Assembly: GCF_006345805.1 (NCBI RefSeq)
Contig: NC_043012.1
Location: 27,776,001 to 27,840,000, forward strand
Length of the DNA stretch: 64,000 nt
Reading direction: 5' to 3'
From: Octopus sinensis
Taxonomy: Eukaryota
Shown: piece by piece, positions 10,410-62,241 of the stretch
Layout of the letters: every line of letters starts with the position of its first letter
Numbering within the stretch: position 1 is the stretch's first letter
Notes under the pieces: model-generated
What the model was told of the DNA's origin: nothing
Database searches by the model: none
The model's input: only the letters and a program-made list of their open reading frames with translations
Program-made: the position numbers and the translations under genes

Positions 10410-10895
10410 TGAGGTGGTATCAAAAAATTCCTGGACTATTTCATGAGGTAGTGTGCCAAATGGCATCGCTGTATTTACTTCACAAGTTGTGAATTTTTTT
10501 TTTTACGATCATATGTATGCTATACACTGTGATTTTGTCATGGACAGGAACAAAGCGCTAACATGAAATTTTGCATTAAACTTCTGAAGTTTGCTACAGA
10601 GGCTTTGGGCATTCTTTGGTAAGCTTATGGTGACAAGGCAATGATTTATACACAATGTTTTGAGTGGCATGGGTGCTTCAAGTGCAGAAGAACATCTCTG
10701 GAAGACATGCCATGAGCATCACCCCTGGAAATGTGGTATTATGCATTGAGGCTTCGTCCCCCAGTACCAGACTGTCAATTGAGAGTTTTACTAGGATGTT
10801 TTGAAGTGTTTGTGGGAAGACATTCGGCAAAAGCAACAATATCTCTGTAGCACAAACAATTGGTTTCTTTACAACAATGTTGCACCCTGTCACTA
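10410..10895 (+). mobile_element. Internally deleted mariner relic
   Basis: TIR-like GAGGTGGTATCAAAAAATTCCTGGACTA. Degenerate transposase N-terminus (MKFCIKL..QAYGDKA..CFEWHG). Homologous to 22691-25411. Confidence 0.8.
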
Positions 10896-18490: not shown

Positions 18491-18606
18491 ACATTTTGCA
18501 GTCGCGTGGCATCATCACCTGCTGGAGCATATTCATTACTGCGCCATGGTTTCATGCAACGGTTAGCTGAATGTGAAGTGTTCTCTATGCGTCCAGAGCA
18601 TGAAAG
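18491..18606 (+). CDS. NUP205: NUP205 exon
   Basis: TAG/GTAGTG, phase 0-2. TFCSRVASSPAGAYSLLRHGFMQRLAECEVFSMRPE vs human AFLTRVAKIQQGALELLRSGVIVRLAQCQVYDMRPE. Confidence 0.93.
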
Positions 18607-18976
18607 GTAGTGCACACCTCTTTATGCAAGGCATCTGCAATTACATATATATATATAATTTCATTGTTAATATCTATGAATTTGTGTACAATTGAAAAAA
18701 TTCTCTTTACATTTCCATCTAGAATTCATGGTTTGAGAGTAAACTTTATTTTTATGCAAGGAAAAATCTTTTTGAGTGACAAAAGAGAACCTCGGAAGAT
18801 ATAAAAAATTATTTTTCTTGTTCAAGATATCTACTGTTTTACTATGCTCACATAATTGTATAACCCTCTGTTAATGTGCTATCATGTATTTCTGATAATT
18901 GTTGCTTCATTATTTTCTGTTAATAATGCTATTGAAATTATTTAGTTGTAATAACAAACAACATACTGATTCTTAA

Positions 18977-21900
18977 CCCCTTGACGCTGGTATTACCCGA
19001 AGCATGCGAGACACTGCTCCGTTTTTTTTTTATCTAAAGAGGCCACACAAACGTACAAGTGCCAACAAGCTCGCATCTGTTTACGTTCACCGTTACAATA
19101 ACATAGCCGTCGTACATTTACGTCTACCGGTTTATGAAAACAAACTATGTGAAGCTATTTATCATAATATGATATACAAGAGTTATTCTGCTCAAGTTTA
19201 AAAAATAGCTTGCGTGTGGTACAACTCAAAACACGGTATTATGCAAAAGGACACATCACAGTCCAGACAACGATATCTGGTTTCGCGCTTATGGTGGTGT
19301 GAGGTGCATACAACACATTTCCTTGCCGGATTCTGCTTTTTGTTCCGTTGGCAGTATGAAACGTGGGAAATGTCCTTATCGGTTCAGAAGCCAGTTTGGA
19401 GTCGGTCGGGCGTTAGGACATCCACGAGTTCAGAAACTTCGATAATTTCATTTATCAAAGCCTCGCGAAATGCGAGTCAATTTCTTCGCCACCCAGCATT
19501 TGCCAACGTGACCGTAGCCAGTACCGCATCGACTGGTCTCCGTGCTGTGGGCACGTAACAAACACCATCCGATCGTAGCTGTTCGCCAGCCTCGTCTGAC
19601 ACCTGTGTCAGTGGCACATAAGAAAACACCATCCGAGCGTGGCCGTCTGCCAGCCTCGTCTGGCACCTGTGTCGGTGGCACATAAAAAACACCATCCGAG
19701 TGTGGCCATCTGCCAGCCTCGTCTGGCACCTGTGTCGGTGGCACATAAAAAACACCATCCGAGCGTGGCCATCTGCCAGCCTCGTCTGGCACCTGTGTCG
19801 GTGGCACATAAAAAACACCATCCGAGCATGGCCGTCTGCCAACCTCGTCTGGCACCTGTGTCGGTGGCACATAAAATCACCCACTACACTCTCGGAGTGG
19901 TTGGTGTTAGGAAGGGCATCCAGCTGTAGAAACACTGCCAGATCTGACTGGCCTGGTGCAGCCTTCAGGCTTGCCAGACCCCAGTTGAACCGTCCTAACC
20001 CATGCTAGCATGGAAAGCGGACGTTAAACGATGATGATGATGATGATGATGATGATCAGATGTGTGTTCATTAGTGCCATATCCACAATGTACAAAAATA
20101 TTTCTTTGTACCATTTTCCAAATCTTTGTGCAGATTTGTGCATAGTAGCCAGCTGATCGGACCTATCCACCCCACTCATTGCTCTGTTGTAGTCCTGTAC
20201 AACATCGGCTTTTATGATGGGGTTCCCTGCATGATTCCGTTTGCCAGTTTCAGACATTGCAGCAGAGTGCATCATACTCAGCATGGTCATGTACTTTCTG
20301 TCTTGCCAGACCAACGCCAGGAGACCACTGTTTGTCGGATGGTATGCAAATTCTCCTTTCTCAAGTTTCGGCTTTCGAAGATCGAGGGTTATGTTCCTTC
20401 TGAAAGTATGGACCATCCCACAGGCATTTGTTCTCCTGACATGCAGCTGCTGAAACATGTTGGGGCTGGAAAACTAGTTATCCATATAAATGTTATACCC
20501 TTTGTCTAATGACATTAGTTGATGCTACAACATCCACGACCCTGTCCTTGCCAGTATATATTTTATGGTTCCAGGTATAGCCACATGCGACAACGGATGA
20601 CTGGCAAACTTTACATACTTTCACTCCAAAGCGCGCATGTTTTATAGGGTTGTACTGTCTGAATCACAACCGTCCACTGAATTTCCAGAGACTTTCGTCT
20701 GTGGAAATATCTTGTGTAGGTGTATAGACAGTTTTGAAATTGTCCACGACTGCGTCAACAATTGGCCGAAGTTTGTGCAGCTTGTCATCGGTGTTGACGC
20801 CCAAGTTGAAGTGTAGGTTTTTCTGTAGCACGAAAAAATTATCGCTCGGCATCGTGTTGGCGAAAAATAGCGTCGCCATTTGAGGGTTCCTGCTCCATTA
20901 CAAACTGAGGATAGGTTTTCTTAAGATTCCCATGAGAATAAGAAGCGCAAGAAACACTTTGATTTCATTGCCTGTCGTCGGGAACTAGTCAGTGCTATGC
21001 TTGGATTCACGTTGAGGATGAGTAGCAGCGTAGCTGTTTGTTTCGTCTGCCATATGCTCGAAAAGTTCCTCCGTGAGAAACTCGTGGAATATTTCCAAGG
21101 GCAAAGTGTGATTGTTCAGGTTCGCTTTTATCCCAGAGTTGCCTAAGAATCCGTATTGTCACGGAAAATTGTCTATTCTCCACCATACCACATTCTGCTG
21201 GCCAGGGGCATCGACTCTTGCCCTTCTGTTGTTTCATGGCAATTGCAAAGTACCCGAATCAGAGTTCGGCAAAAACTCAGAGCCAGAATCACCATCAGAT
21301 GAGTGAAAATCATCAGAAAAGTCTGAGCCTGAATCACCAATTCTTCTCGATTCAGCAGCAGCAGCTGACGATCGAGCTGAGGATGTGGGTGTGGTCTGAC
21401 GTGAAGCAGCTGATGGACTCGGATGCGACCGCAAATTTGCTGAAGGTGTATCACTGGCCTCTGCAACAGCTGCAGCAACACCGGAAGTACGATGTTGCCG
21501 CTCAATTTCACATGTAGGTGTCGGTCAAGTGGATGTTTGATGCGATGATGAGCAAGTTGACGTAGGTGTTGGTTGTGCCGACATTTTACGTGACGAGTTG
21601 GTTGCCTCAGGTGTTGTCGGGTGTGATGACGAGCGTAAATTCGCTGATGGAGGACTGAAGCGTGAATGCAGAACTTGTAATTGATTTGAAGACATTTTGA
21701 ATTATGATGTGTTTTCGCTGGAGACCGTTACTTTTATACCTCCTGTACCAATGCATATGCATGTAAAGTATCCGCATGTCATTGGTCTACTGCTAGTCTC
21801 ATGAGTTGAACGTAACCTAAAATAGCTAAGATAATGCACGGGACAGCGATCATGCGCACCTCAAAAGATAAAGTACATGATAGTGAACGTAAATATACGT

Positions 21901-22016
21901 CAACCACTAAAAAGTCCGTGATAGATGTAGGGCAGCTCTACATCGTATATTTACATTAACCGCGGGTAGGCAAGCAAAAGTGTGATCACATATTTGCGTC
22001 AACCGTTGTCAAGGGG
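18977..22016 (-). mobile_element. Full-length degenerate piggyBac (PGBD4-like), interrupted by an RTE tail insertion
   Basis: TTAA-CCCCTTGAC...GTCAAGGGG-TTAG. Catalytic motifs STDESL, YMDN, SGVDRSDQ. C-terminal RYRCLDCDVSFCIIPCFELYH. Confidence 0.9.
19501..20057 (+). repeat. RTE-derived 3' tail insertion with ~5 tandem 63-bp units and (GAT)n end
   Basis: 63-bp period seen directly (CATAAAAAAC at 19681 and 19744). Tail nearly identical to 62000-62241. Confidence 0.9.
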
Positions 22017-22690
22017 TTAGAAGCCTGGCATCTAAGAATTTTTTACTGGCTGTGCAAACTAGTTGTGAAGGTTCAATTTATGTCATTGTACAACTAAATG
22101 CCTAATTTCTACTGCTTTTTCTGGAGTACTGCTCACGAATTTATTTTTGTTGATCTAGGATTATTTTAAACAGTTTTCAGGATTATTATATCTGAAAAAA
22201 AATTTAATGTTTAAGATTGACAGTTTCTGAATATTGTGTATATAGATTAGAAGTTACTAATTTTATAAGATGTGCATGCATAATTTCAAGCATTCTATAT
22301 ATACATTTACGAGTATGATGTTTATGAAAAATATCCATGGAAGTCACCAATGACTCAGTTGCTGAGATAAGAAACAACCAGCTGAAGAATACTTTGGTAA
22401 TTTCTTGACAGTGTTATGTTCCCTTAATAGTCTAATCGATCTTATAAGATATATGCACCACAGAATAGTATAGGTTACTGTTAACAACTATTTTGCTTGC
22501 TTAAAGTGTTGAGATCATCCCACCCCCACCCCTACAGCTCTTGTTAGAGGGGACTGCACTGTCTTCATCAGTACACCTTTTAGCACTTGTGTAGATGTGC
22601 ATACGTGTGTATCTTTGCATACATGTACATATGAGTATGTGAATATATGCGACACTTGCTCTGGTGATTATCTCAACTTATTGGGAACAT

Positions 22691-25411
22691 ATAGGTAGTA
22701 TCAAAAAGTTCCCTAACAAGTTATCTCTTATTATAAAAGCAGATTTTATCTGCCTCCCTTTGTCTCTTATAGAAATCTACAATATAGGATTTCTTCAATT
22801 ACAATTTACCTAGCACTTTTAAGAGTAGAATGCATCGGGTCGTGCCAGGTCCAGTTTTTAAAATTTCAACCCCAATTAAGCAAAATTTAGAGAAAACTCA
22901 CATTGTGGTGTGTGAGTCAAGTGCTTTTCTTAGTGTGGGCTATAGCACACGCACACACACACACACACAAAAAGGGAGCGATCTGATTCACTCACGCTAT
23001 CACTCTAATTTCTACGACTTTCTCTTTGCAAGTTTGCAACGATTAAAGTGAAACTATTTGGATAAAACGAGAGAAGTGTACCTTAAACCACTACTAAAAA
23101 AAAAAAAAACAGCAAACAGAAACAAATAAATACATAACGATTTACTCCTCACACAATTTCTTCAATTAGAGTTTACCCATGATTTTTCAAAGTACTTCCA
23201 TTGGGTCATGCCATACAAAATTTCTTTCAATTTTACCCCCAATTATGACAAAATTCGAGAAAACTCAATATTTTAACATTTCACTCCGAAAGCATTGATG
23301 TACATGTGTGCGTGCGTGAGTGTGTGTGTGTCATTCCTCACACACACGCATACACATACATATATGACAGTGACAAACACAAACGTTTCAAATAACTACA
23401 TACAAACACGTGTGTGTTTGTTATTAGTAAAAAAGGCGCCAAAACACAACTCACTTCTCATTCCAACACATTTGCAAAGACACACGGACGGTCGAATTGC
23501 TATAACAATACAGAAAAGGTAAATTGGTTTTTATTTTACTTTCTGTCGTTAAATTTTGGTAGTATTATTTGGCGAGCCGAGCTTGCAGTATGAAACAGTA
23601 TTTATGTATAAACAGACGACACTTATATATAGTTATTAATAAATGTATGCATCCGTTTAAAAGAAAAACCAAAAGATATTTTATTCTTTATAAATGTTGT
23701 GTTCAAAATAACATTTTCTTTTAAGAATGTGTATATAACAAAGTATGTGTATATAACTACGTGGCTTATATCTTTATATAAAAGTGAAGTTGTGTGTCTG
23801 TCTCCTACGATTTAGATTCCTAACTACTCCCACATTTTGCGGTGCAGTGTAACCAAAACCGGGTATCTTATAGTCGTGATTCATATCGAGCCCTTCTGGG
23901 TATTAGCGTGCGTCTACGATTTAAAAAAAATTTACCATCATATTTTTCCATTTTAATGCATTTTTTTCGCTATTATATAAGGGAAGTAACTCTCTAAAAA
24001 TATCTACGATGTGTCAACGATTAAAAAAAAAAATTTACCTTAATTTTTTTCCCATTTTTAATGCATTTTTTTGCTATTTTTTGGCTATAACTCTCTAAAA
24101 ATGCTTATATAGTTATTTCCCTTACAAACCCGAGCAACGTCGGGCGATACTGCTAGTGTTTAATAAAAAATAACTTTACCTAAGTTTTAACACGATCTCC
24201 TTCGAAATAGTTATCTTGCACAGCAGTACACCAGTCCCAGCATTTCTTCCACTTTCAGAATCCAGCCTGGAAGTTGTTTTCTGTAAGCGAGTCGAGGACC
24301 TTCTGTAATTTGCTCTTAATCTCAACAGTGGTGTTAAAATGGTGATCTTTGAGCTGCATTTGCATCTTGGGGAAGAGATGGAAGTTCACAGGGGCTAAAT
24401 CTGGTGAATAGGGTGGGTACAGAAGTGATGCCAAGTTGTTTTTGGTGAGAAACTCATGAGTGAGGAGAGGTTGGTGACAGGGTGCATTGTCACTGTGAAG
24501 AATCTAGTTCTTCATGTTCCACAGATCTGGTTGCTTTCACCAAATGTCCTCCCTCAAACACTTCAAAACATTGCTGTAGGTAGTGCACACCTCTTTATGC
24601 AAGGCATCTGCAATTACAGTCTAGCCCTGGGGGATGAATTCTCAATGCACAATATCACTGATGTCAAAAAAAAAAAATCAATGTGCATGCTCTTGATTGA
24701 GCTGAAACTCTGTCATGCCTTTTTGATCATGGAGAAGAAGAGCTCTTCTCCTGTGACGACTGCTGCTTTGTCTGAGGGTCATACCTGTAGACCCAGCTTT
24801 CATCACCGGTGATGATACTCAACATGAAGGATGGGTCATCAGTGGTACGCTGATGGAGATCTTGACAGATTTCAACACACCACATGTTCAGTTCAGACAT
24901 TAGTATTGCCTGCACAGGCCCATACGACAGACCCACACAACATCAACAATGTCGTTGATTGTTCTCCAACAATCCTCATTCAGAAGCTGATGAATTTTCT
25001 CCACATTTCCAGGGATGATGCTCATGGCAAGTCTTCCAGATCACTCATCATCTTCCAAAGATATTCTTCTGCTTTTGAAGTGCCCATGCCACTCAAAACA
25101 TCTCATACCACCCATTGCCTCATCACTAAACTTTTTGAAGCTCAGTGTCTCTGTAGCAGACTTCACAAGTTTAATGCAAAATTTCATGTTGGCTCTTTGT
25201 TCCAACTTCCTGTCCATGACAAAATTACAGAGTACAGCATACATGTGATCACAAAAACACAAATTTCACAATTTGCGATGTAAACACAATGATGTCACTT
25301 GACACACTGTCTCATTAAGGTCACTGCTAGCTCTTACTGCACATGCAACTGTGAGCTACCATCTGTTGGCACGCTACAGTACTAGTCCAGGAACTTTTTG
25401 ATGCCACCTCA
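22691..25411 (-). mobile_element. Mariner relic with nested Helitron
   Basis: TIRs AGGTAGTATCAAAAAGTTCC / GGAACTTTTTGATGCCACCTC. EQRANMKFCIKLVKSATET, IITGDESWVY, and a YSPDLAP-like motif. Confidence 0.88.
22724..24156 (+). mobile_element. Composite non-autonomous Helitron
   Basis: 5' TC at 22724 and a second 5'-like start TCTTTATATAAAAG at 23771. 3' hairpin CCCGAGCAACGTCGGG then CTAG. Inserted between A and T; removal restores mariner CAAGTTA|TGTTTAAT. Confidence 0.8.
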
Positions 25412-25591
25412 CATGATAATGAACTAGACTCTCAAGACACTTTGGATATACAAATCACTTGCTCTCTGAATTAGATACATTTTATGAGCATTAGATGCAC
25501 AATTGGTGATTATTGTTAAATGCTAAAAATTTTTCAACAAGATTTTTGTCATTATTTCGTATCTGTTGTAACTCATATAGTATAATTGCAG

Positions 25592-25739
25592 GGGACACAC
25601 TGAAGGCAATACACTTATGGATGAAGAAATGGGTTTATCACCTTTGGCCCGCTATCGCCGACTTCTTTTCCCCGTCCTCAAAGTCTGTTTAGCTATCATT
25701 TCTTCAGTTGGAGTAGAAAACTGCAATGCAGCCAAAGAG
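25592..25739 (+). CDS. NUP205: NUP205 exon
   Basis: CAG/GTAGTG, phase 2-0. LSPLARYRRLLFPVLKVCLAIISSVGVENCNAAKE vs human PTPVDRYRQILLPALQLCQVILTSSMAQHLQAAGQ. Confidence 0.92.
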
Positions 25740-26029
25740 GTAGTGTATTCCAATTTCCGTTAACTTTCAGCATTTCTTTTGTAGATGAACTTCTGATGGT
25801 TATTGCTTGCATACTTTTTTTAAGTGTAATTTGGTCTGTCAGTACCTCAGTTCTGTTTTTTTTTTTTGTCCAACTTTATTGAAAATGAAAATAATTTTTT
25901 TCTTTAATAACATCCTTTAGTAGTCCACCAAAACCATTATGAATGACAATGAAGACAATAGTATTATTCATAATGACTATCAAATCAAAAAGCTATAAAT
26001 ATTAGTAATGGCAATAATATTCCAAATCC

Positions 26030-30339: not shown

Positions 30340-32136
30340 ATGAAACTAACATTCCTCGAAAAAAATAACTTGCTGAACAATACTCAAAGAAGATTTCGAT
30401 AACGAAAGTGAAGAAAATGAAAGTGATGGAAATGATAGTGTAAACAAGGCAACATGGTCGAAAATTACAACACCAGTCACAATTTCTGATTTTACTGAAA
30501 ACACTGGTCCACAACACAATTTACCTCCTGATGCTCAACCACTGGATTATCTATTTTTATTTTTGCCTGAAAGTTTTTTTGAAAATGTTGCGGAGCAAAC
30601 GAACAAATATGCGCAACATTTAATTTCTGTTCGTGGAAGAAGCGATCCACTATGGCAGCCAACTAATACTGCGGAAATGAGAGCATTTTTTATGATTAAC
30701 ATTATGTTTGGAGTTAAACAGCTTCCTCGACTGTGGAACTATTGGGGTCCCGATATAAGGTATGGCGACTCATATATTTCGAGCATCATGTCGAAGACGA
30801 GGTATTCGAAAATATCTCAGTATTTACATTTAACTGATTCTTCCAATGCCCCCAACAAAAACGACCCAAACTACGATCCCCTGTACAAAGTACGTACCGT
30901 GATAGATTTACTTGTAAATAATTATAAAACTATTTATTTACCTGGAAAAAATCTCAGTGTAGATGAAGCCATGATAGGATTTAAGGGCAGAGTACATTTT
31001 CGGCAGTACATGCCTGCCAAACCTACTAAATGGGGGATCAAGGTATGGGAAGTTTGTGAATCGGAGACAGGATACTGTGTAAACTTCGATGTTTACACAG
31101 GTAAGAAGTATAATGGGAAAAGACCGCATGGATTGGGACATGATGTTGTATGGTCCCCTTACACAACCTTTTCACCATCAGCACCGACACCTCTATTTTG
31201 ATCGTTTTTTTTCTTCAGTGGCTTTGGCTGAAAATCTTGCCCGTAAGCACTTACATGTGCAGCACTGTTATGGGAAACCGTAAAAGTTTACCCGATGAAA
31301 TAAAAACCAAATTAAAAAAAAGAGGGGACATTTTGCAAATGCAAAAACAAAATTTATTAGTTACTGCATTTAAAGACAAAAGACAGATTTTATTTCTGTC
31401 TTCTAACGAACAACCTGGTGTTGGGGCTGAGGAGAAACCCCTCGTGAATATTTGTTACAACAAATATATGGGTGGGGTAGACAAATCCGACCAATATTGG
31501 GCATATTACCTAGTTGGTCGACCTGGGAAGAAATGGTGGAGGTACATTTTGTGGTTTTTAGTTAATTTAACTATAGTAAATGCACACATTGTATACGTAA
31601 AAAGCCACAAAGTACCTCCGCCACCGAAAGATTACGACCACTTGAAATTTCGGGTTGACATTGCATCTCAGTTACGTGGGGGCTTTTCTTCTAGAAAGCA
31701 CAGAACTGGGAGAAGAGCAAAATTAACTGAGGTGGATGTCAACAGAGAAAATATTGACTTTCATCAAGTGGAAAAAATAAATGGAAGGAAAAAAGTTTGC
31801 AGACTGTGTTCGCAGCAAAAAAGAAAAGCTGCGAAAGGGTACCAGATCGAGGCTTCATACATGTGTTCGTTTTGCCAAGTGCCCTTGTGTAAAGGGTGCT
31901 TTGGACAATTTCACTACAGAAATATGCCATGAATGTATAATTTTGCATATTCCTTTTAGTTTTATAATATAATATGTGAAAGTGAGAACTACATATTAAT
32001 TTCCAGTATGTTACACACCTGTATTCACCTTTGTCTCACCTGTTAATTTTTTTATTAGATGCATTCTGTTATGTGAATGAATTCGTTAAATTGTATAAGA
32101 GTGCATAGCCAATGGTATATTGACTAGTAAAAGAGT
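30340..32136 (+). mobile_element. piggyBac transposase pseudogene (PGBD4-like)
   Basis: SVDEAMIGFKGR, YMPAKPTKWGIK, YFDRFFSS, MGGVDKSDQ and a C-terminal Cys-rich domain. Two frameshifts near 31158 and 31245. TIRs not clearly seen. Confidence 0.9.
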
Positions 32137-55488: not shown

Positions 55489-58400
55489 ATAATATAATAA
55501 TAATAATGTTCGTCCTTCGGTTCGAAGATGACCAACTGACATCATCTGATGGAACTGCCGCCATGAGACCGGAGGTGGCTGGTGAGGCCAATCCGGGCAA
55601 GGAAGCCCCTCCCACAGGTGGGGCAGAAGTGGGTAGGGGCAGTGCTACTGGTGCAGGCGGCTCTGACTTTACGCATCTGACGTTTCTGCTCCGCTGACCG
55701 AATCCGTCCCTCCTCGGCTGTCCCTGCTCCCACGGTGATTGCGCTGCGCCAGGATGAGCGGTTGGCAGCAAGTGTCTCCCAGGTCTCTGTTCCGATGGAG
55801 AAGTCTTTGAGAGAGACCTTGAGACTATCCTTGTAGCGCTTTTTCTGCCCTCCGACTTTGCGCCTGCCCTGGCCGAGTTCACCGTAGAAGAGCTGTTTTG
55901 GGATGCGAGTGTCGGACATGCGGGAGACATGGCCCGCCCATCTCAGCTGGTCCTTGCGCATGATTGTGATGGTGCTAGGGAGATCTGCCTGCTTCAGAAC
56001 TTCCGTGTCTGGGACTTTGTCCTGCCAGTGGATGTGAAGGAGATTCCGAAGACACCTGAGATGGAAGTGGTTTATCTGGCGCTCGTGCCTTCGGTAAGCA
56101 GTCCACGTCTCGCAGCCGTATAGTAGAGTGGTAAGCACGACTGCCCGGTAGACTTTCAGCTTGGTGTTGAGGCTGATTCCTCTCCGCTCCCAGACTTTCT
56201 CTCACAGTCTCCCAAACGCGCTGCTTGCCTTGGAGATTCTGTTGATGGTTTCAGCATCTATGTTGGCATTGCAGGAGAGAGTGCTGCCCAGGTAGGTGAA
56301 GTTTTCCACCACTCGTAAGATCCGTCCGTTCACCCTTATCTGAGGCTCATGGTATTGTTTGCCGGGGGCTGGCTGAAACATCACTTCGGTTTTCTTTGCA
56401 CTGATGGTGAGACCGAAGTTGTCACAGGCTGATGAGAACCTGTCCATCTCGAGCTGCATCTCCTGCTCATCGATTGCATTAAGGGCGCAGTCGTCAGCAA
56501 AGAGAAAGTCTCTGACGACTGTCTCCCTCACCTTTGTGACAGCCTGCAATCTCCTGGAGTTGAAAAGTTTCCCGTCTGTCCTGTACTTGATGTTGATACC
56601 GGACTTGCAGTCCCTAAAGGCGTCGGACATCATTGCCGAGAACATGATGCTGAACAGTGTTGGGGCCAGGACACAGCCCTGCCTGACTCCGTTGGTCACC
56701 TGGAAGGCTTCAGATGAGTCGCCGTCCTCAAGGATTCTGGCTGTCATTCCGTCGTGGAACTGGCGGACAATTGCAATAAATTTGCTGGGGCAACCAAATT
56801 TTCCCATGACCTTCCATAGTCCCTCCCGACTGACTGTATCAAAGGCCTTGGTGAGGTCAACAAAGGTCATGCAGAGGTCAAGGTGCTGCTCCATGCATTT
56901 CTCCTGGAGCTGGCGGGCGGCGAATATCATGTCAGTGGTCCCTCGACCCGCACGGAAGCCACACTGGCTCTCAGGGAGAAGGCCTTGCTCCAAGTGTTCC
57001 AGAAGGCGGTCAAGCAGGACCCGGGCCAGGATCTTGCCTGCTATGGACAAGAGGGAAATACCTCGGTGGTTGTCGCAGGACTGCCGATCTCCTTTCCGCT
57101 TATAAATGTGGACGATTGTTGCATCCCGGAAATCTTGAGGGAGTTGTTCCCTGTCCCACATCGACTGGAACAGGCTGGTGAGCTGACTGATCATGGTGGG
57201 GCCTCCCGACTTGAACACCTCTGCAGGGATGGCGTCAGAGCCTGGAGCTTTGCCGGTGGACATTTTTTTGATGGCTCTGCTCACTTCCCCGACTGCAGGG
57301 GGAACAGCCAACTCGTGGTTTGTCGGCACCTGGGGGAGTCGTGCGATGGCTTCCTCGTTGATCTGGGCTGGTCGGTTGAGCACGATGTTGAAGTGCTCCG
57401 CCCATCTCTCCAGGATCAGCCTCTTGTTAGTCAGGAGTGAGGTTCCATCTGAGCTGAGCAGGGGGGTTGATCCAAAGGAGAACTGCGGTCCATAGACAGC
57501 TTTCAGCGCCTCGTAGAATTTCTTGGTGTCGTGTTTGTCTGCGTATCCCTGAATCTCATCCGCCTTGGCGCTTAACCATGCATCTTGCATGAGGCGGAGT
57601 TTAGCCTGGACTGTGCTGCGAATGTTGTTGAAAGCGGCCTTCTTTGCCGTGCAGGTGGTGTCATTTTGGTGAGCCCGCAGCAGACGGCGTTTCTCTTCCA
57701 GGAGCTTTTGGATTTCCTGGTCGTTTTCGTCGAACCAGTCCTGGTGGTTCCTCGTAATTTGGCCCAGAGTTTCAAGGGCGATGGAATGAACCGTGTCCCT
57801 GAATGATTCCCACTGCTCATCGATGCTGGACTGGTCACTCCGAATGTCCAACAGCTTACTGTCCATACGTGACTGGAGATCTTGTGCAGTCAGCTGGTTC
57901 CTTAATTTCGTGATGTTAAGCTTCCTCGTCACTTTCTGACCCTGTGGTCTTCTCTTAGGTCGGATGTAGAAATCCATCCTGGAGATGATGAGGCGATGGT
58001 CCGTCCAGCAGTCAGCTCCGCACATGGCTTTGACCAGTCTCACGTCCCGCCTGTCTTTCGCCCTGACGATGACGTAATCTATCAGATGCCAGTGTTTGGA
58101 GCGTGGATGCATCCATGATGTCTTGTTGCGTGTTGGCAGACGGAACAAGGTGTTGGCGATGGTAAGATCATGAGAGGCACACGCACGCAGGAGGAGCTGT
58201 CCGTTGCTGTTGCACTTTCCGATTCCTTGCTTTCCCAGTACGCGATGCCAGGCTTGGTGGTCAGTCCCGACACGGGCGTTAAAATCCCCAAGGAGGATGA
58301 GCTTCCCAGGCTGGGCTGACGTGATGAGGGAGTCGAGTTCCTCATAGAACCTGTCCTTAACTTCTTCAGGGTTGGTCATGGTGGGGGCGTAAGCACTGAT

Positions 58401-59470
58401 GATGGTCGCACTAGTCTTGTTTCCAAGTGGGAGCTGCATCTTCATCAGCCGATCGTTGATACCCTCGGGGGGGCTTTCCAGTTTCCGCACGTGTACTGAC
58501 TTAATGGCAAAACCAACACCAGCCTCACGACGCTCTTCGCTGCTGCGACCACTCCAAAAGAAAGTGTAGCCGCCGCCTGTCTCTGTCAGCTGGCCTTTGT
58601 CCGCAAGGCGGGTCTCGCTCAGTGCTGCAATATCGACACTGTATCGGCTCAGTTCTCTGGCCACCAGGGCAGTTCGTCTCTCTGGTCTGTCCGCTTTGGT
58701 GTTGTCAAGCAGAGTTCTCACGTTCCAAGTTGCGAAAGTGAGCACCTTTGTTTGTTTTCTTCTTTCTTTGTTTCGACCGCTTGGAAAGGATCCCCGCCAG
58801 CCGCGGTTTGCTGACCAGGGTGAGGTGAGGCAGGCTATGTTTAGGGCAACCTTTTCTAGCCCCGTCCTCATGCTGGGGAGGCGAGCAGAGCGATCCTGAA
58901 GAGGGCTGCTCGGTCACTCAGGAGGCTGCCGGACTCCACTGCTGCCTCAGTTCAGTGAGGGGCGACCACATGTCCTGAGCCGCCTGTGTGTGGGTTCACG
59001 ACTGCAGCTCCCAGTGTATCCTCACCTGCTACTTCGCCGTTTCCCCATCGCCACAGGACTTTGGGATGGTGTCATGGCGTCATGATGTCGTGACATGCGC
59101 GTGACTTGGATTATAGTGAGGGTGACTTGCGCAGGATCAGCCTCACTCTCTCGTCCTGGTGCGCCGGATCCAGTGGCAAGACAAAGTCAAGACGACTGGG
59201 GGTAGACCAAGATGCAGGAGCTGCCGGAAGGTGGCACGCATGGCGCAATCCAACCGCCTAAGGGGCTCCACTCCGGATTTTGGATGGCCATTGACTCATG
59301 AGAGAGTTCCTCTGCCCTTTGACAGGTTTTGTTTTTAGTCCTGCTGGGTGTCCAAATCACCCTCCTCACCAAGAAATCTTGGTGGGGTTGCCAGTTTAGT
59401 CGCCAACGACCCGACCATGTAACAGGTTGTACTGGGTTACATGTTACCAGTAGCTCCAAGCGGAGACCTG
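55489..59470 (-). mobile_element. Full-length RTE-clade LINE (~4 kb) with (ATT)n tail
   Basis: Single EN-RT ORF, ~600-nt 5' UTR, short 3' UTR. Possible low-complexity TSD ACACATATA(T/C)ATA at 55476 and 59471. Confidence 0.95.
55542..58871 (-). pseudogene. RTE ORF (APE endonuclease + RT + C2H2 finger), 1109 codons, one in-frame TGA at 56202-56204
   Basis: TWNVRTL, LSETRL, GDFNARVG, IDYVIV, TDHRLI; FVDLTKAFD, GVRQGCVLAP, LFADD; CPTC..SHLRSH. ORFs 56202-58871 and 55542-56138 are in the same frame. Confidence 0.95.
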
Positions 59471-59509: not shown

Positions 59510-59561
<52 letters not shown>

Positions 59562-62241
59562 ATCAAAATCAAAATAAATCAAAATAGATGAACATCAATG
59601 GAATTTGTATCTTTGTGGTACCAGTGCTGGTGGCACACAAGAAAACCATCCGAACGTGGCCGTAGCCAGTACCGCATCGACTGGCCTCCGTGCTGTGGGC
59701 ACGTAACAAGCACCATCCGATCGTGGCTGTTCGCCAGCCTCATCTGGCACCTGTGTCGGTGACACATAAAAACACCATCCGAAGACCCGGCAAGACGAGT
59801 CAGGCCATAACCCGTGGCCCCTACCAGGGACGTAGTCAGTCCACCTGTGCATACCTTCCTTCTTGTGACACTTGTGAAGACCGTTGAGGCAAGTGAAAAT
59901 CAAAATCAAAATCAAAACAAATCAAAATAGATGAACATCAATGGAATTTGTATCTTTGTGGTACCAGTGCCGGTGGCACACAAGCAAACTATCCGAACGT
60001 GGCCGTAGCCAGTACCGCATCGACTGGCCTCCGTGCTGTGGGCACGTAACAAACACCATCCGATCGTTCGCCAGCCTCATCTGGCACCTGTGTCGGTGGC
60101 GCATAAAAACACCATCCGAAGACCCGGCAAGACTAGTCAGGCCATAACCCGTGGACCCTACCTGGGACGTGCATACCTTCCTTCTTGTGACACTTGTGAA
60201 GACCTGTTGAGGCAAGTGAAAATCAAATCAAATCAAAATAGATGAACATCAATGGAATTTGTATCTTTGTGGCACACAAGAAAACCATCCGAACGTGGCC
60301 GTAGCCAGTACCGCATCGACTGGCCTCCGTGCTGTGGGCACGTAACAAGCACCATCCGATCGTGGCTGTTCGCCAGCCTCATCTGGCACCTGTGTCGGTG
60401 ACACATAAAAACACCATCCGAAGACCCGGCAAGACGAGTCAGGCCATAACCCGTGGCCCCTACCAGGGACGTAGTCAGTCCACCTGTGCATACCTTCCTT
60501 CTTGTGACACTTGTGAAGACCGTTGAGGCAAGTGAAAATCAAAATCAAAACAAATCAAAATAGATGAACATCAATGGAATTTGTATCTTTGTGGTACCAG
60601 TGCCGGTGGCACACAAGCAAACTATCCGAACGTGGCCGTAGCCAGTACCGCATCGACTGGCCTCCGTGCTGTGGGCACGTAACAAACACCATCCGATCGT
60701 TCGCCAGCCTCATCTGGCACCTGTGTCGGTGGCGCATAAAAACGCCATCCGAAGACCCGGCAAGACTAGTCAGGCCATAACCCGTGGACCCTACCTGGGA
60801 CGTGCATACCTTCCTTCTTGTGACACTTGTGAAGACCTGTTGAGGCAAGTGAAAATCAAATCAAATCAAAATAGATGAACATCAATGGAATTTGTATCTT
60901 TGTGGCACACAAGAAAACCATCCGAACGTGGCCGTAGCCAGTACCGCATCGACTGGCCTCTGTGCTGTGGGCACGTAACAAACACCATCCGATCGTGGCC
61001 GTTCGCCAGCCTCATCTGGCACCTGTGTTGGTGGCACATAAAAACACCATCCGAAGACCCGGCAAGAATAGTCAGGCCATAACCCTGGACCCTACCTGGG
61101 ACGTGCATACCTTCCTTCTTGTGACACTTGTGAAGACCTGTTGAGGCAAGTGAAAATCAAATCAAATCAAAATAGATGAACATCAATGGAATTTGTATCT
61201 TTGTGGCACACAAGAAAACCATCCGAACGTGGCCGTAGCCAGTACCGCATCGACTGGCCTCTGTGCTGTGGGCACGTAACAAACACCATCCGATCGTGGC
61301 CGTTCGCCAGCCTCATCTGGCACCTGTGTCGGTGGCACATAAAAACACCATCCGAAGACCCGGCAAGAATAGTCAGGCCATAACCCGTGACCCCTACCTG
61401 GGACGTAGTCAGTCCACCTGTGCATACCTTCCTTCTTGTGACACTTGTGAAGACCTGTTGAGGCAAGTGAAAATCAAAATCAAAATCAAATCAAATCAAA
61501 TCAAATCAAAACAAATCAAAATAGATGAACATCTTGTGAAGACCTGTTGAGGCAAGTGAAAATCAAAATCAAATCAAAACAAATCAAAATAGATGAACAT
61601 CTTGTGAAGACCTGTTGAGGCAAGTGAAAATCAAAATCAAAATCAAATCAAATCAAATCAAAACAAATCAAAATAGATGAACATCTTGTGAAGACCTGTT
61701 GAGGCAAGTGAAAATCAAAATCAAATCAAAACAAATCAAAATAGATGAACATCTTGTGAAGACCTGTTGAGGCAAGTGAAAATCAAAATCAAAATCAAAA
61801 TCAAAATCAAATCAAATCAAATCAAAATAGATGAACATCAATGGAATTTGTATCTTTGTGGTACCAGTGCCGGTGGCATACAAGAAAACCATCCGAACGT
61901 GGCCGTAGCCAGTACAGCATCGACTGGCCTCCGTGCTGTGGGCACGTAACAAACACCATCCGATCGTGGCCGTTCACCAGCCTCATCTGGCACCTGTGTC
62001 GGTGGCACATAAAAACACCATCCGAGCGTGGCCGTCTGCCAGCCTCGTCTGGCACTGTGTTGGTGGCACATAAAATCACCCACTACACTCTCGGAGTGGT
62101 TGGCGTTAGGAAGGGCATCCAGCTGTAGAAACACTGCCAGATCTGACTGACCTGGTGCAGCCTTCGGGCTCCTCAGACCCCAGTTGAACCGTCCAACCCA
62201 TGCTAGCATGGAAAGCGGACGTTAAATGATGATGATGATGA
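59562..62241 (+). repeat. Tandem array (~2.7 kb) derived from an RTE 3' UTR, ending in the element's (GAT)n tail
   Basis: Anchor ATAGATGAAC at 59584, 59927, 60238, 60560, 60871, 61172, 61521, 61589, 61673, 61741 and 61827. Confidence 0.95.

What the first reader, a model, noticed from the sequence alone, without database searches (positions are those of the whole stretch)
24525..24618. Exact 41-bp copy of a NUP205 splice donor pasted into a mariner relic, creating a candidate poison exon
Seen: 18605-18645 (AG|GTAGTGCACACCTCTTTATGCAAGGCATCTGCAATTACA, the exon-intron junction of exon 18491-18606) recurs exactly at 24578-24618, in the same intron and orientation. The homologous mariner copy near 10770-10810 lacks it, and both junctions show microhomology (AG; CAATT.ACA). 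Upstream lies an acceptor-like TTCTTCATGTTCCACAG ending at 24524, defining a 55-nt pseudo-exon (24525-24579). Entered in the gene's phase 2 it reads SGCFHQMSSLKHFKTLL and ends in TAG. Inference: a recent templated insertion (polymerase-theta-like repair or template switch) that could give NMD-coupled splicing of an essential nucleoporin.
Basis: partly seen in the sequence, partly recalled or inferred. Interest (0 to 1): 0.72.

Follow-up and report, generated by a model that had tools for sequence, protein, structure and literature searches.

The report
DNA-repair patch copies NUP205 splice donor
In an octopus nuclear-pore gene (NUP205), the first 36 bases of an intron have an exact second copy 6 kb downstream inside a dead transposon; this is likely an ordinary scar of error-prone DNA repair, and the exon-like stretch it creates would cut the protein short if spliced in, but such splicing is untested.

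Summary
The 41-mer at 18605-18645 recurs exactly at 24578-24618 and nowhere else in the 2.72-Gb genome. None of 30 other mariner copies carries it. In the 25 that run through the site, about 12 bp stand where this copy has 36 bp, so it is a deletion-insertion with 2-3 bp microhomology. Contigs from two studies bridge the left junction and one bridges both, so an assembly chimera is unlikely.

It fits known templated insertions (class 2 TSIP, MMB-TI). Similar isolated copies occur at about 2 per Mb here and cluster within 10 kb. The scan has noted comparable donor copies in this and other genomes.

The poison exon is possible on paper only. Its acceptor is old mariner sequence, and its donor pairs with U1 like the true donor but has a -3 T seen in 0 of 25 real donors. 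Equally good decoys number 85 in 92 kb of this gene's introns. An overlapping donor 4 nt upstream would give an in-frame, stop-free exon.

One oddity remains: the copy starts at intron base +1, which leaves an RNA-template origin open (about 12%).

The parts
18491..18606 (+). NUP205 coding exon (residues 986-1024 of P0003), ends in phase 2
18605..18645 (+). Template: last 2 exon bases (AG) plus first 39 intron bases; true donor AAG|GTAGTG
18607..25591 (+). NUP205 intron, 6,985 bp, holding both template start and copy
24152..25411 (-). Old mariner relic; terminal repeat kept at 25381-25411, the other end cut back to a few bases; about 9% from the majority of its copies over 107 bp left of the insert
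24508..24524 (+). Acceptor-like site, ancestral mariner antisense sequence (14 of 363 AG sites of the intron score as well, itself included)
24525..24579 (+). 55-nt candidate pseudo-exon ending in TAG (stop in the gene's frame); use not shown
24525..24575 (+). Alternative 51-nt in-frame, stop-free pseudo-exon using the overlapping donor GCT|GTAGGT that the insert also strengthened; use not shown
24578..24618 (+). 41-bp exact copy: AG microhomology (24578-24579), 36-bp insert (24580-24615) replacing about 12 bp of mariner, AC(A) microhomology (24616-24618)
25592..25739 (+). Next NUP205 coding exon (residues 1025-1073 of P0003)

Best explanation
The 36-bp insert is likely a neutral scar of one germline DNA-repair or template-switch event that copied the start of this NUP205 intron into a break in a dead mariner 6 kb downstream. 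Shown: the exact copy, its uniqueness, the replaced 12 bp or so, AG and AC(A) at the joints, and its presence in independent runs. Inferred: a broken or stalled DNA end in the mariner annealed by 2-3 bases to the template 6 kb away, was extended 36-41 bases, then rejoined the other end and lost about 12 bp (MMBIR/FoSTeS-like or alternative end joining; enzyme unknown). Also inferred: the start at the exon-intron border is chance helped by the AG that donors commonly carry, and the resulting exon-like stretch is one of many decoys that are rarely spliced.
For: Empty sites: 0 of 30 copies carry the insert, 25 of 30 run through the site, and 22 of those 25 have the AG (tallies partly read by eye). 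No target-site duplication or poly(A) at the joints. Background in 1.664 Mb: 21 isolated exact pairs of 25 bp or more with only two hits. Four lie 1-10 kb apart (this one plus 3, all direct) in 1.1% of the pair space, and 4 lie beyond 50 kb or on other chromosomes in 94.6% of it. Leaving this one out, p=5e-5 and the rate is 1.9 per Mb (95% CI 0.4-5.5). Decoys: 85 acceptor-donor combinations as good as the candidate on both scores (distinct starts, candidate included) in 91,989 bp of 20 NUP205 introns. A -3 T occurs in 0 of 25 real donors, and on a matrix from 24 real donors 198 of 451 GT sites of the intron score at least as well as the copy. Germline templated insertions with junction microhomology are common in humans (PMC8421209 section 10, part 1; PMC5110952 parts 1-2 of 4).
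Against: By U1 duplex energy the copied donor (-6.9) equals the true donor (-7.0), only 12 of 451 GT sites are as stable, and on the two-score test this intron has just 2 distinct decoy starts, the candidate being one. The pseudo-acceptor (4.9) outscores the intron's real acceptor (2.7) on the small matrix. The template starting at a donor is a rare draw: 3 of 2,294 AG dinucleotides within 10 kb. A 6-kb template distance is longer than the 25-100 bp used to define Pol theta and MMB-TI templates in the passages read. The 3 background pairs were not checked for empty sites, and one (99 bp) runs on past a mismatch, so the rate may be too high.
Confidence: 0.74

Rival explanations
1. RNA-templated patch. 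The right-hand broken end primed on the gene's own excised intron RNA (or on an intron circle closed at the AG at 24579), was reverse-transcribed to the RNA's 5' end at intron base +1, and was joined to the left end.
For: The unique part of the insert begins exactly at intron +1, in sense orientation, in the same intron; the chance under a DNA template is about 0.1% per event. Experimental templated insertions were reported to be enriched for transcribed sequence and reduced by RT inhibitors (PMC5110952, part 2 of 4). Transcripts can template break repair in human cells (PMC12065846, abstract and outline). The genome has LINE reverse transcriptases.
Against: The shared AG is explained for free by a DNA or pre-mRNA template but is a roughly 1-in-17 coincidence for a linear excised intron (AG plus CT 2,294 in 40 kb of strand). 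The circle version needs 24579 to act as an acceptor, and it scores -6.9, matched or beaten by 220 of 363 AG sites. With some 5,000 such copies expected genome-wide (inference), a few donor-start coincidences are expected by chance.
Confidence: 0.12
2. Whatever its origin, the copy acts as a real donor and turns mariner antisense sequence into a low-level poison exon (24525-24579) that sends some NUP205 mRNA to nonsense-mediated decay, or into a 51-nt in-frame cassette (24525-24575).
For: Stop codon in frame. U1 pairing equal to the true donor. Acceptor among the top 14 of 363 AG sites and stronger than the real one on the matrix. The insert improved the overlapping donor at 24575 from -1.3 to -6.7, assuming the majority pre-insertion state.
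Against: -3 T in 0 of 25 real donors and a low matrix score. About 6.5 equally good decoys per 7 kb of intron across the gene. Two overlapping weak donors compete. No conservation is shown. The annotated protein P0003 and the O. bimaculoides protein P0004 both join the two canonical exons directly.
Confidence: 0.1
3. The AG|GT at 24579/24580 is a new recursive splice site: splicing 18606 to it would rebuild the original donor letter for letter.
For: The geometry is exact: the 39 bases after the AG equal the intron's first 39.
Against: No usable polypyrimidine tract: acceptor score -6.9 against 2.2-15.1 for the 25 real acceptors; AGGT occurs 18 times in this intron.
Confidence: 0.03
4. Assembly or polishing chimera.
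For: Any one laid run may be the source of the assembly; the tool flags X5 as near-identical.
Against: X5 (study P4) spans the whole stretch with 0 differences. X6 (P5) bridges the left junction and carries one extra A in the nearby A-run. Junction contigs in X2 (P2, left) and X6 (right) reach 30 letters into the repeat.
Confidence: 0.01

Closest known systems
Class 2 templated sequence insertion polymorphisms (TSIPs; PMC5110952, parts 1-2 of 4 of the text read)
   Same: Copy of another genomic stretch patched into a site with the donor left intact; microdeletion and microhomology at the joints; no target-site duplication or poly(A); heritable.
   Different: Templates there are described as distant and the experimental inserts as 73-414 bp; here 36 bp from 6 kb away in the same intron. 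Polymorphism is not shown here.
Germline microhomology-mediated templated insertions (MMB-TI, MMBIR/FoSTeS-like; PMC8421209, passages and section 10 part 1)
   Same: Insertions of 25 bp or more, microhomology or microhomeology at most joints, about 100 per human genome as germline variants.
   Different: Their search looks for inverted templates within 100 bp; this one is a direct copy from 5,973 bp away.
Polymerase theta-mediated end joining with templated inserts (PMC9834056, passages)
   Same: Small deletion with insertion and 1-6 bp microhomology.
   Different: Templates are called within 25 bp of the break there; the enzyme cannot be identified here.
Mutation-created pseudoexons (DMD review, PMC7175933, passages)
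   Same: A deep intronic change supplies a donor next to a latent acceptor in repeat sequence.
   Different: Those are defined by presence in mature transcripts, which is not shown here.

Membership tests
Class 2 TSIP / templated insertion | Insert matches another locus whose own copy is intact | tested here: met
Class 2 TSIP / templated insertion | Microdeletion and microhomology at the joints | tested here: met
   About 12 bp replaced; AG in 22 of 25 continuous copies; ACAG in 9 of 30, other CpG states in the rest
Class 2 TSIP / templated insertion | No target-site duplication, no poly(A) tail | tested here: met
   Joint sequences
Class 2 TSIP / templated insertion | Polymorphic in the population | tested here: inconclusive
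   Present in 3 of 4 runs laid; the fourth has no cover at the site
MMB-TI as defined in PMC8421209 | Inverted template within 100 bp | tested here: not met
   Direct orientation, 5,973 bp
Pol theta end-joining scar | Template within about 25 bp of the break | tested here: not met
   Only other copy is 6 kb away
Pol theta end-joining scar | Dependence on POLQ | not testable with these tools
   Needs genetics
Poison exon | Premature stop upstream of later junctions | tested here: met
   TAG at 24577-24579; 8 more resolved introns follow; the decay rule itself is recalled
Poison exon | Included in transcripts, rising when NMD is blocked | tested here: inconclusive
   Only assembled contigs of two guessed-RNA runs could be laid; these cannot show absence
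Poison exon | Conservation across species | not testable with these tools
   No relatives held for G000
Recursive splice site | Strong acceptor directly before the regenerated donor | tested here: not met
   Acceptor score -6.9, below all 25 real acceptors
Mariner (Tc1/mariner) relic | Terminal inverted repeats and mariner transposase remains | tested here: met
   About 31-bp inverted ends in sister copies L007, L012, L013; Pfam Transposase_1 E=1.4e-6 in L010

The most novel reading that the evidence does not exclude
The patch was reverse-transcribed in cis from the gene's own excised intron: synthesis ran off the RNA's 5' end at intron base +1. That would be a germline footprint of intron-RNA-templated break repair, and a route by which introns seed copies of their own splice donors and so new exons.
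Probability: 0.1. Interest if true: 0.7.

Novelty: new member of a known kind. Interest (0 to 1): 0.2.

Why it matters
As it most likely stands, it is a clean, readable example of a common mutation type: the many mariner copies give the empty site, so both joints can be read to the base. It would matter more if inserts starting at intron +1 prove enriched genome-wide, which would point to spliced-out intron RNA as a repair template in an animal germline. It would also matter if the copied donor is used, because that would show a poison or cassette exon born in one step in a core nucleoporin gene.

Tried and rejected
RNA evidence: no RNA holder listed (10 of the 20 holders are only guessed RNA). 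In one search the two guessed-RNA runs gave 1 and 2 records, none laid only partly, so no contig enters at 24525 or leaves at 24575/24579. Contigs drop rare variants, the runs may hold DNA and the canonical junction was outside the stretch, so this counts neither way.

Empty allele: neither of the 2 joints listed is the 12-for-36 replacement, but 20 loose-end rows and 295 pieces were not shown. X10 has no cover over 24582-24613, and X2 none over 24608-24613, which proves nothing. X2's left-junction depth (39.8) against flanking contigs (46.2, 48.9) looks homozygous but is weak.

(1,551 bp at 85% likeness, runs X4, X2, X10, X15) was swamped by other mariner copies and gave nothing on the insert.

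Rejected: the 41-mer as part of a repeat consensus; retro-insertion with target-site duplication (no duplication or tail); a strong hairpin at template or target (-5.4 and -7.6 kcal/mol over 90-110 nt, no shuffled control). Dating by orthologues was not possible: no related genome is held.

Literature: 'NUP205' with 'poison exon' gave 0 papers. Searches listed no paper whose title or abstract start describes an insert copied from its own intron's first bases; only listings were seen, except PMC7175933 (passages). No supplements were read.

Full report
Observation. The 41 bases at 18605-18645 recur without a difference at 24578-24618. An exact search of the window's 2.72-Gb genome finds these two copies only, and none for the reversed control. 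By base composition the match is expected about 1e-15 times in the window.

Gene. Five translated exon stretches hit Pfam Nup192 in profile order; only one passes the cut-off alone, and a sixth stretch had no hit. An exon search returned 2 proteins among 49 candidates: P0003 (100%, unnamed, 1,449 aa) and P0004, named by its source as Nup205-like of Octopus bimaculoides (98%). The genome is therefore an octopus. P0003 scores E=4.8e-165 on Nup192. Mapping it on the window and its neighbours resolved 25 junctions with GT-AG ends. The template spans donor 18606 (AAG|GTAGTG, phase 2), and the intron runs to 25591.

Target and empty site. The copy lies in a mariner relic on the minus strand. A genome search scored 40 of 2,505 candidates and gave 29 other loci, which I aligned with the window's 10.7-kb copy. 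None of the 30 has the insert. Five leave the element at or before the site. The other 25 run through it, almost all with about 12 bases where the window has 36 (L030 has a short deletion). The AG left of the insert is present in 22 of those 25. On the right, ACAG stands in 9 of 30, and others show different states of a decaying CpG, so the right microhomology is 2-3 bases. There is no target-site duplication or A-tail. The acceptor-like tract ending at 24524 is in most copies and so predates the event.

Is it real? On 24470-24700 at 96% likeness, X5 (study P4) gives one contig across the whole stretch with 0 differences; the tool notes it may be the source of this DNA. X6 (P5) gives one contig bridging the left joint and a second that starts 30 letters inside the repeat and crosses the right joint, with one extra A in the downstream A-run. 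X2 (P2) gives a left-joint contig with 31 and 30 letters on its two sides. The two 30-letter cases fall one short of the tool's bridging rule, as expected (my inference) where a 31-mer graph breaks at a 41-bp repeat. X10 has no cover there. Leaving any one run out as a possible source, at least one study still bridges a joint and another shows a joint contig.

How unusual? I scanned 1.664 Mb (464 kb around the window and six other 200-kb stretches) for exact matches of 25-300 bp with unrelated flanks. Of 6,183 candidates, 709 passed length, complexity and two-copy filters, 35 had unrelated flanks, and 21 had only two BLAST hits; the 14 with more hits were dropped. Of the 21, thirteen lie within 1 kb, four at 1-10 kb (this one and three others, all direct), none at 10-50 kb, and four farther or on other chromosomes, where 94.6% of the pair space lies. 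Without this case the local excess has p=5e-5 and the rate is 1.9 per Mb (0.4-5.5), some 5,000 genome-wide by extrapolation. Those three were not checked for empty sites, so the rate is rough. Local copying of short stretches is thus an ordinary process here.

Mechanism. Shown: deletion-insertion, intact template, short shared ends. Inferred: one end of a break or stalled fork in the mariner annealed by 2-3 bases 6 kb upstream, copied 36-41 bases and rejoined. This matches class 2 TSIPs (PMC5110952) and germline MMB-TIs (PMC8421209). The distance and direct orientation fall outside the working definitions of MMB-TI (inverted, 100 bp) and of Pol theta templated inserts (25 bp; PMC9834056). It works like them, but the enzyme cannot be named. 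Zero differences in 36 bases allow up to 8% divergence, while the mariner copy is about 9% from its family majority; the insert postdates this copy's arrival but cannot be dated finely.

The start at +1. The unique part begins with the intron's first base. Three of 2,294 AG dinucleotides within 10 kb are donors, so this is about a 0.1% draw. Against thousands of events per genome, and a scan that has flagged several donor copies elsewhere (unchecked AI notes), chance is enough. An RNA template would explain it directly, and RNA-templated repair is reported (PMC5110952 part 2; PMC12065846 abstract). But a linear excised intron leaves the shared AG unexplained, and an intron circle needs an acceptor at 24579 that scores below every real one. 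I give this about 12%.

Poison exon. Entered from 18606, 24525-24579 ends in a stop. The scores disagree. A matrix from 24 real donors ranks the copy low (198 of 451 GT sites as good), mainly for its -3 T, seen in 0 of 25 real donors. Pairing energy with the U1 5' end (sequence recalled) ranks it with the true donor (12 of 451 as stable). The acceptor is in the top 14 of 363. With both favourable thresholds, 85 such exon starts occur in 91,989 bp of 20 NUP205 introns (5 introns under 400 bp left out), though only 2 in this intron. The insert also built a second donor 4 nt upstream (GCT|GTAGGT) that would give a 51-nt in-frame exon without a stop, so even if the region is spliced the outcome need not be decay. 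The matrices rest on one gene and are crude. Use in RNA could not be tested with contigs.

Verdict. A real, unique, well-resolved templated insertion of a known kind; function not shown and probably absent. Interest 0.2.

Noticed in passing
window 23767-24157: A repeat of about 390 bp (40 BLAST hits in 1.66 Mb) abuts and truncates the mariner's end. It starts with TC and ends in a short hairpin plus CTAG, which resembles a non-autonomous Helitron (motif recalled).
   Followed up: partly
window 25737-25747: The next NUP205 donor (GAG|GTAGTGTA) has the same uncommon first six intron bases as donor 18606 (AAG|GTAGTGCA); probably coincidence.
   Followed up: no
window 24200-25750: Several runs guessed to be RNA hold 35-73% of the words of this mostly intronic stretch, and X5 and X6 cover the insert at depth 12-16: intron retention, pre-mRNA or DNA in the library.
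   Followed up: no
window 30377-31932 (+) and 20024-20473 (-): Two transposase relics with Pfam DDE_Tnp_1_7 (piggyBac-like, label recalled) inside NUP205 introns; the first is split over two frames.
   Followed up: partly
window 56202-58913 (-): A 903-codon open frame with endonuclease and reverse-transcriptase domains (LINE ORF2-like) inside the 21-kb NUP205 intron.
   Followed up: partly
window 59561-62240 and 19505-20044: Tandem arrays of about 300-340 bp and 63 bp units of one SINE-like repeat family.
   Followed up: no
G000:C16 about 28027979 and 28030127; C2 about 100122376 and 100123557; C13 about 30080747 and 30082532: Three other isolated direct exact copies (28, 31, 99 bp) 1-2 kb apart, candidates for the same kind of event.
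   Followed up: no
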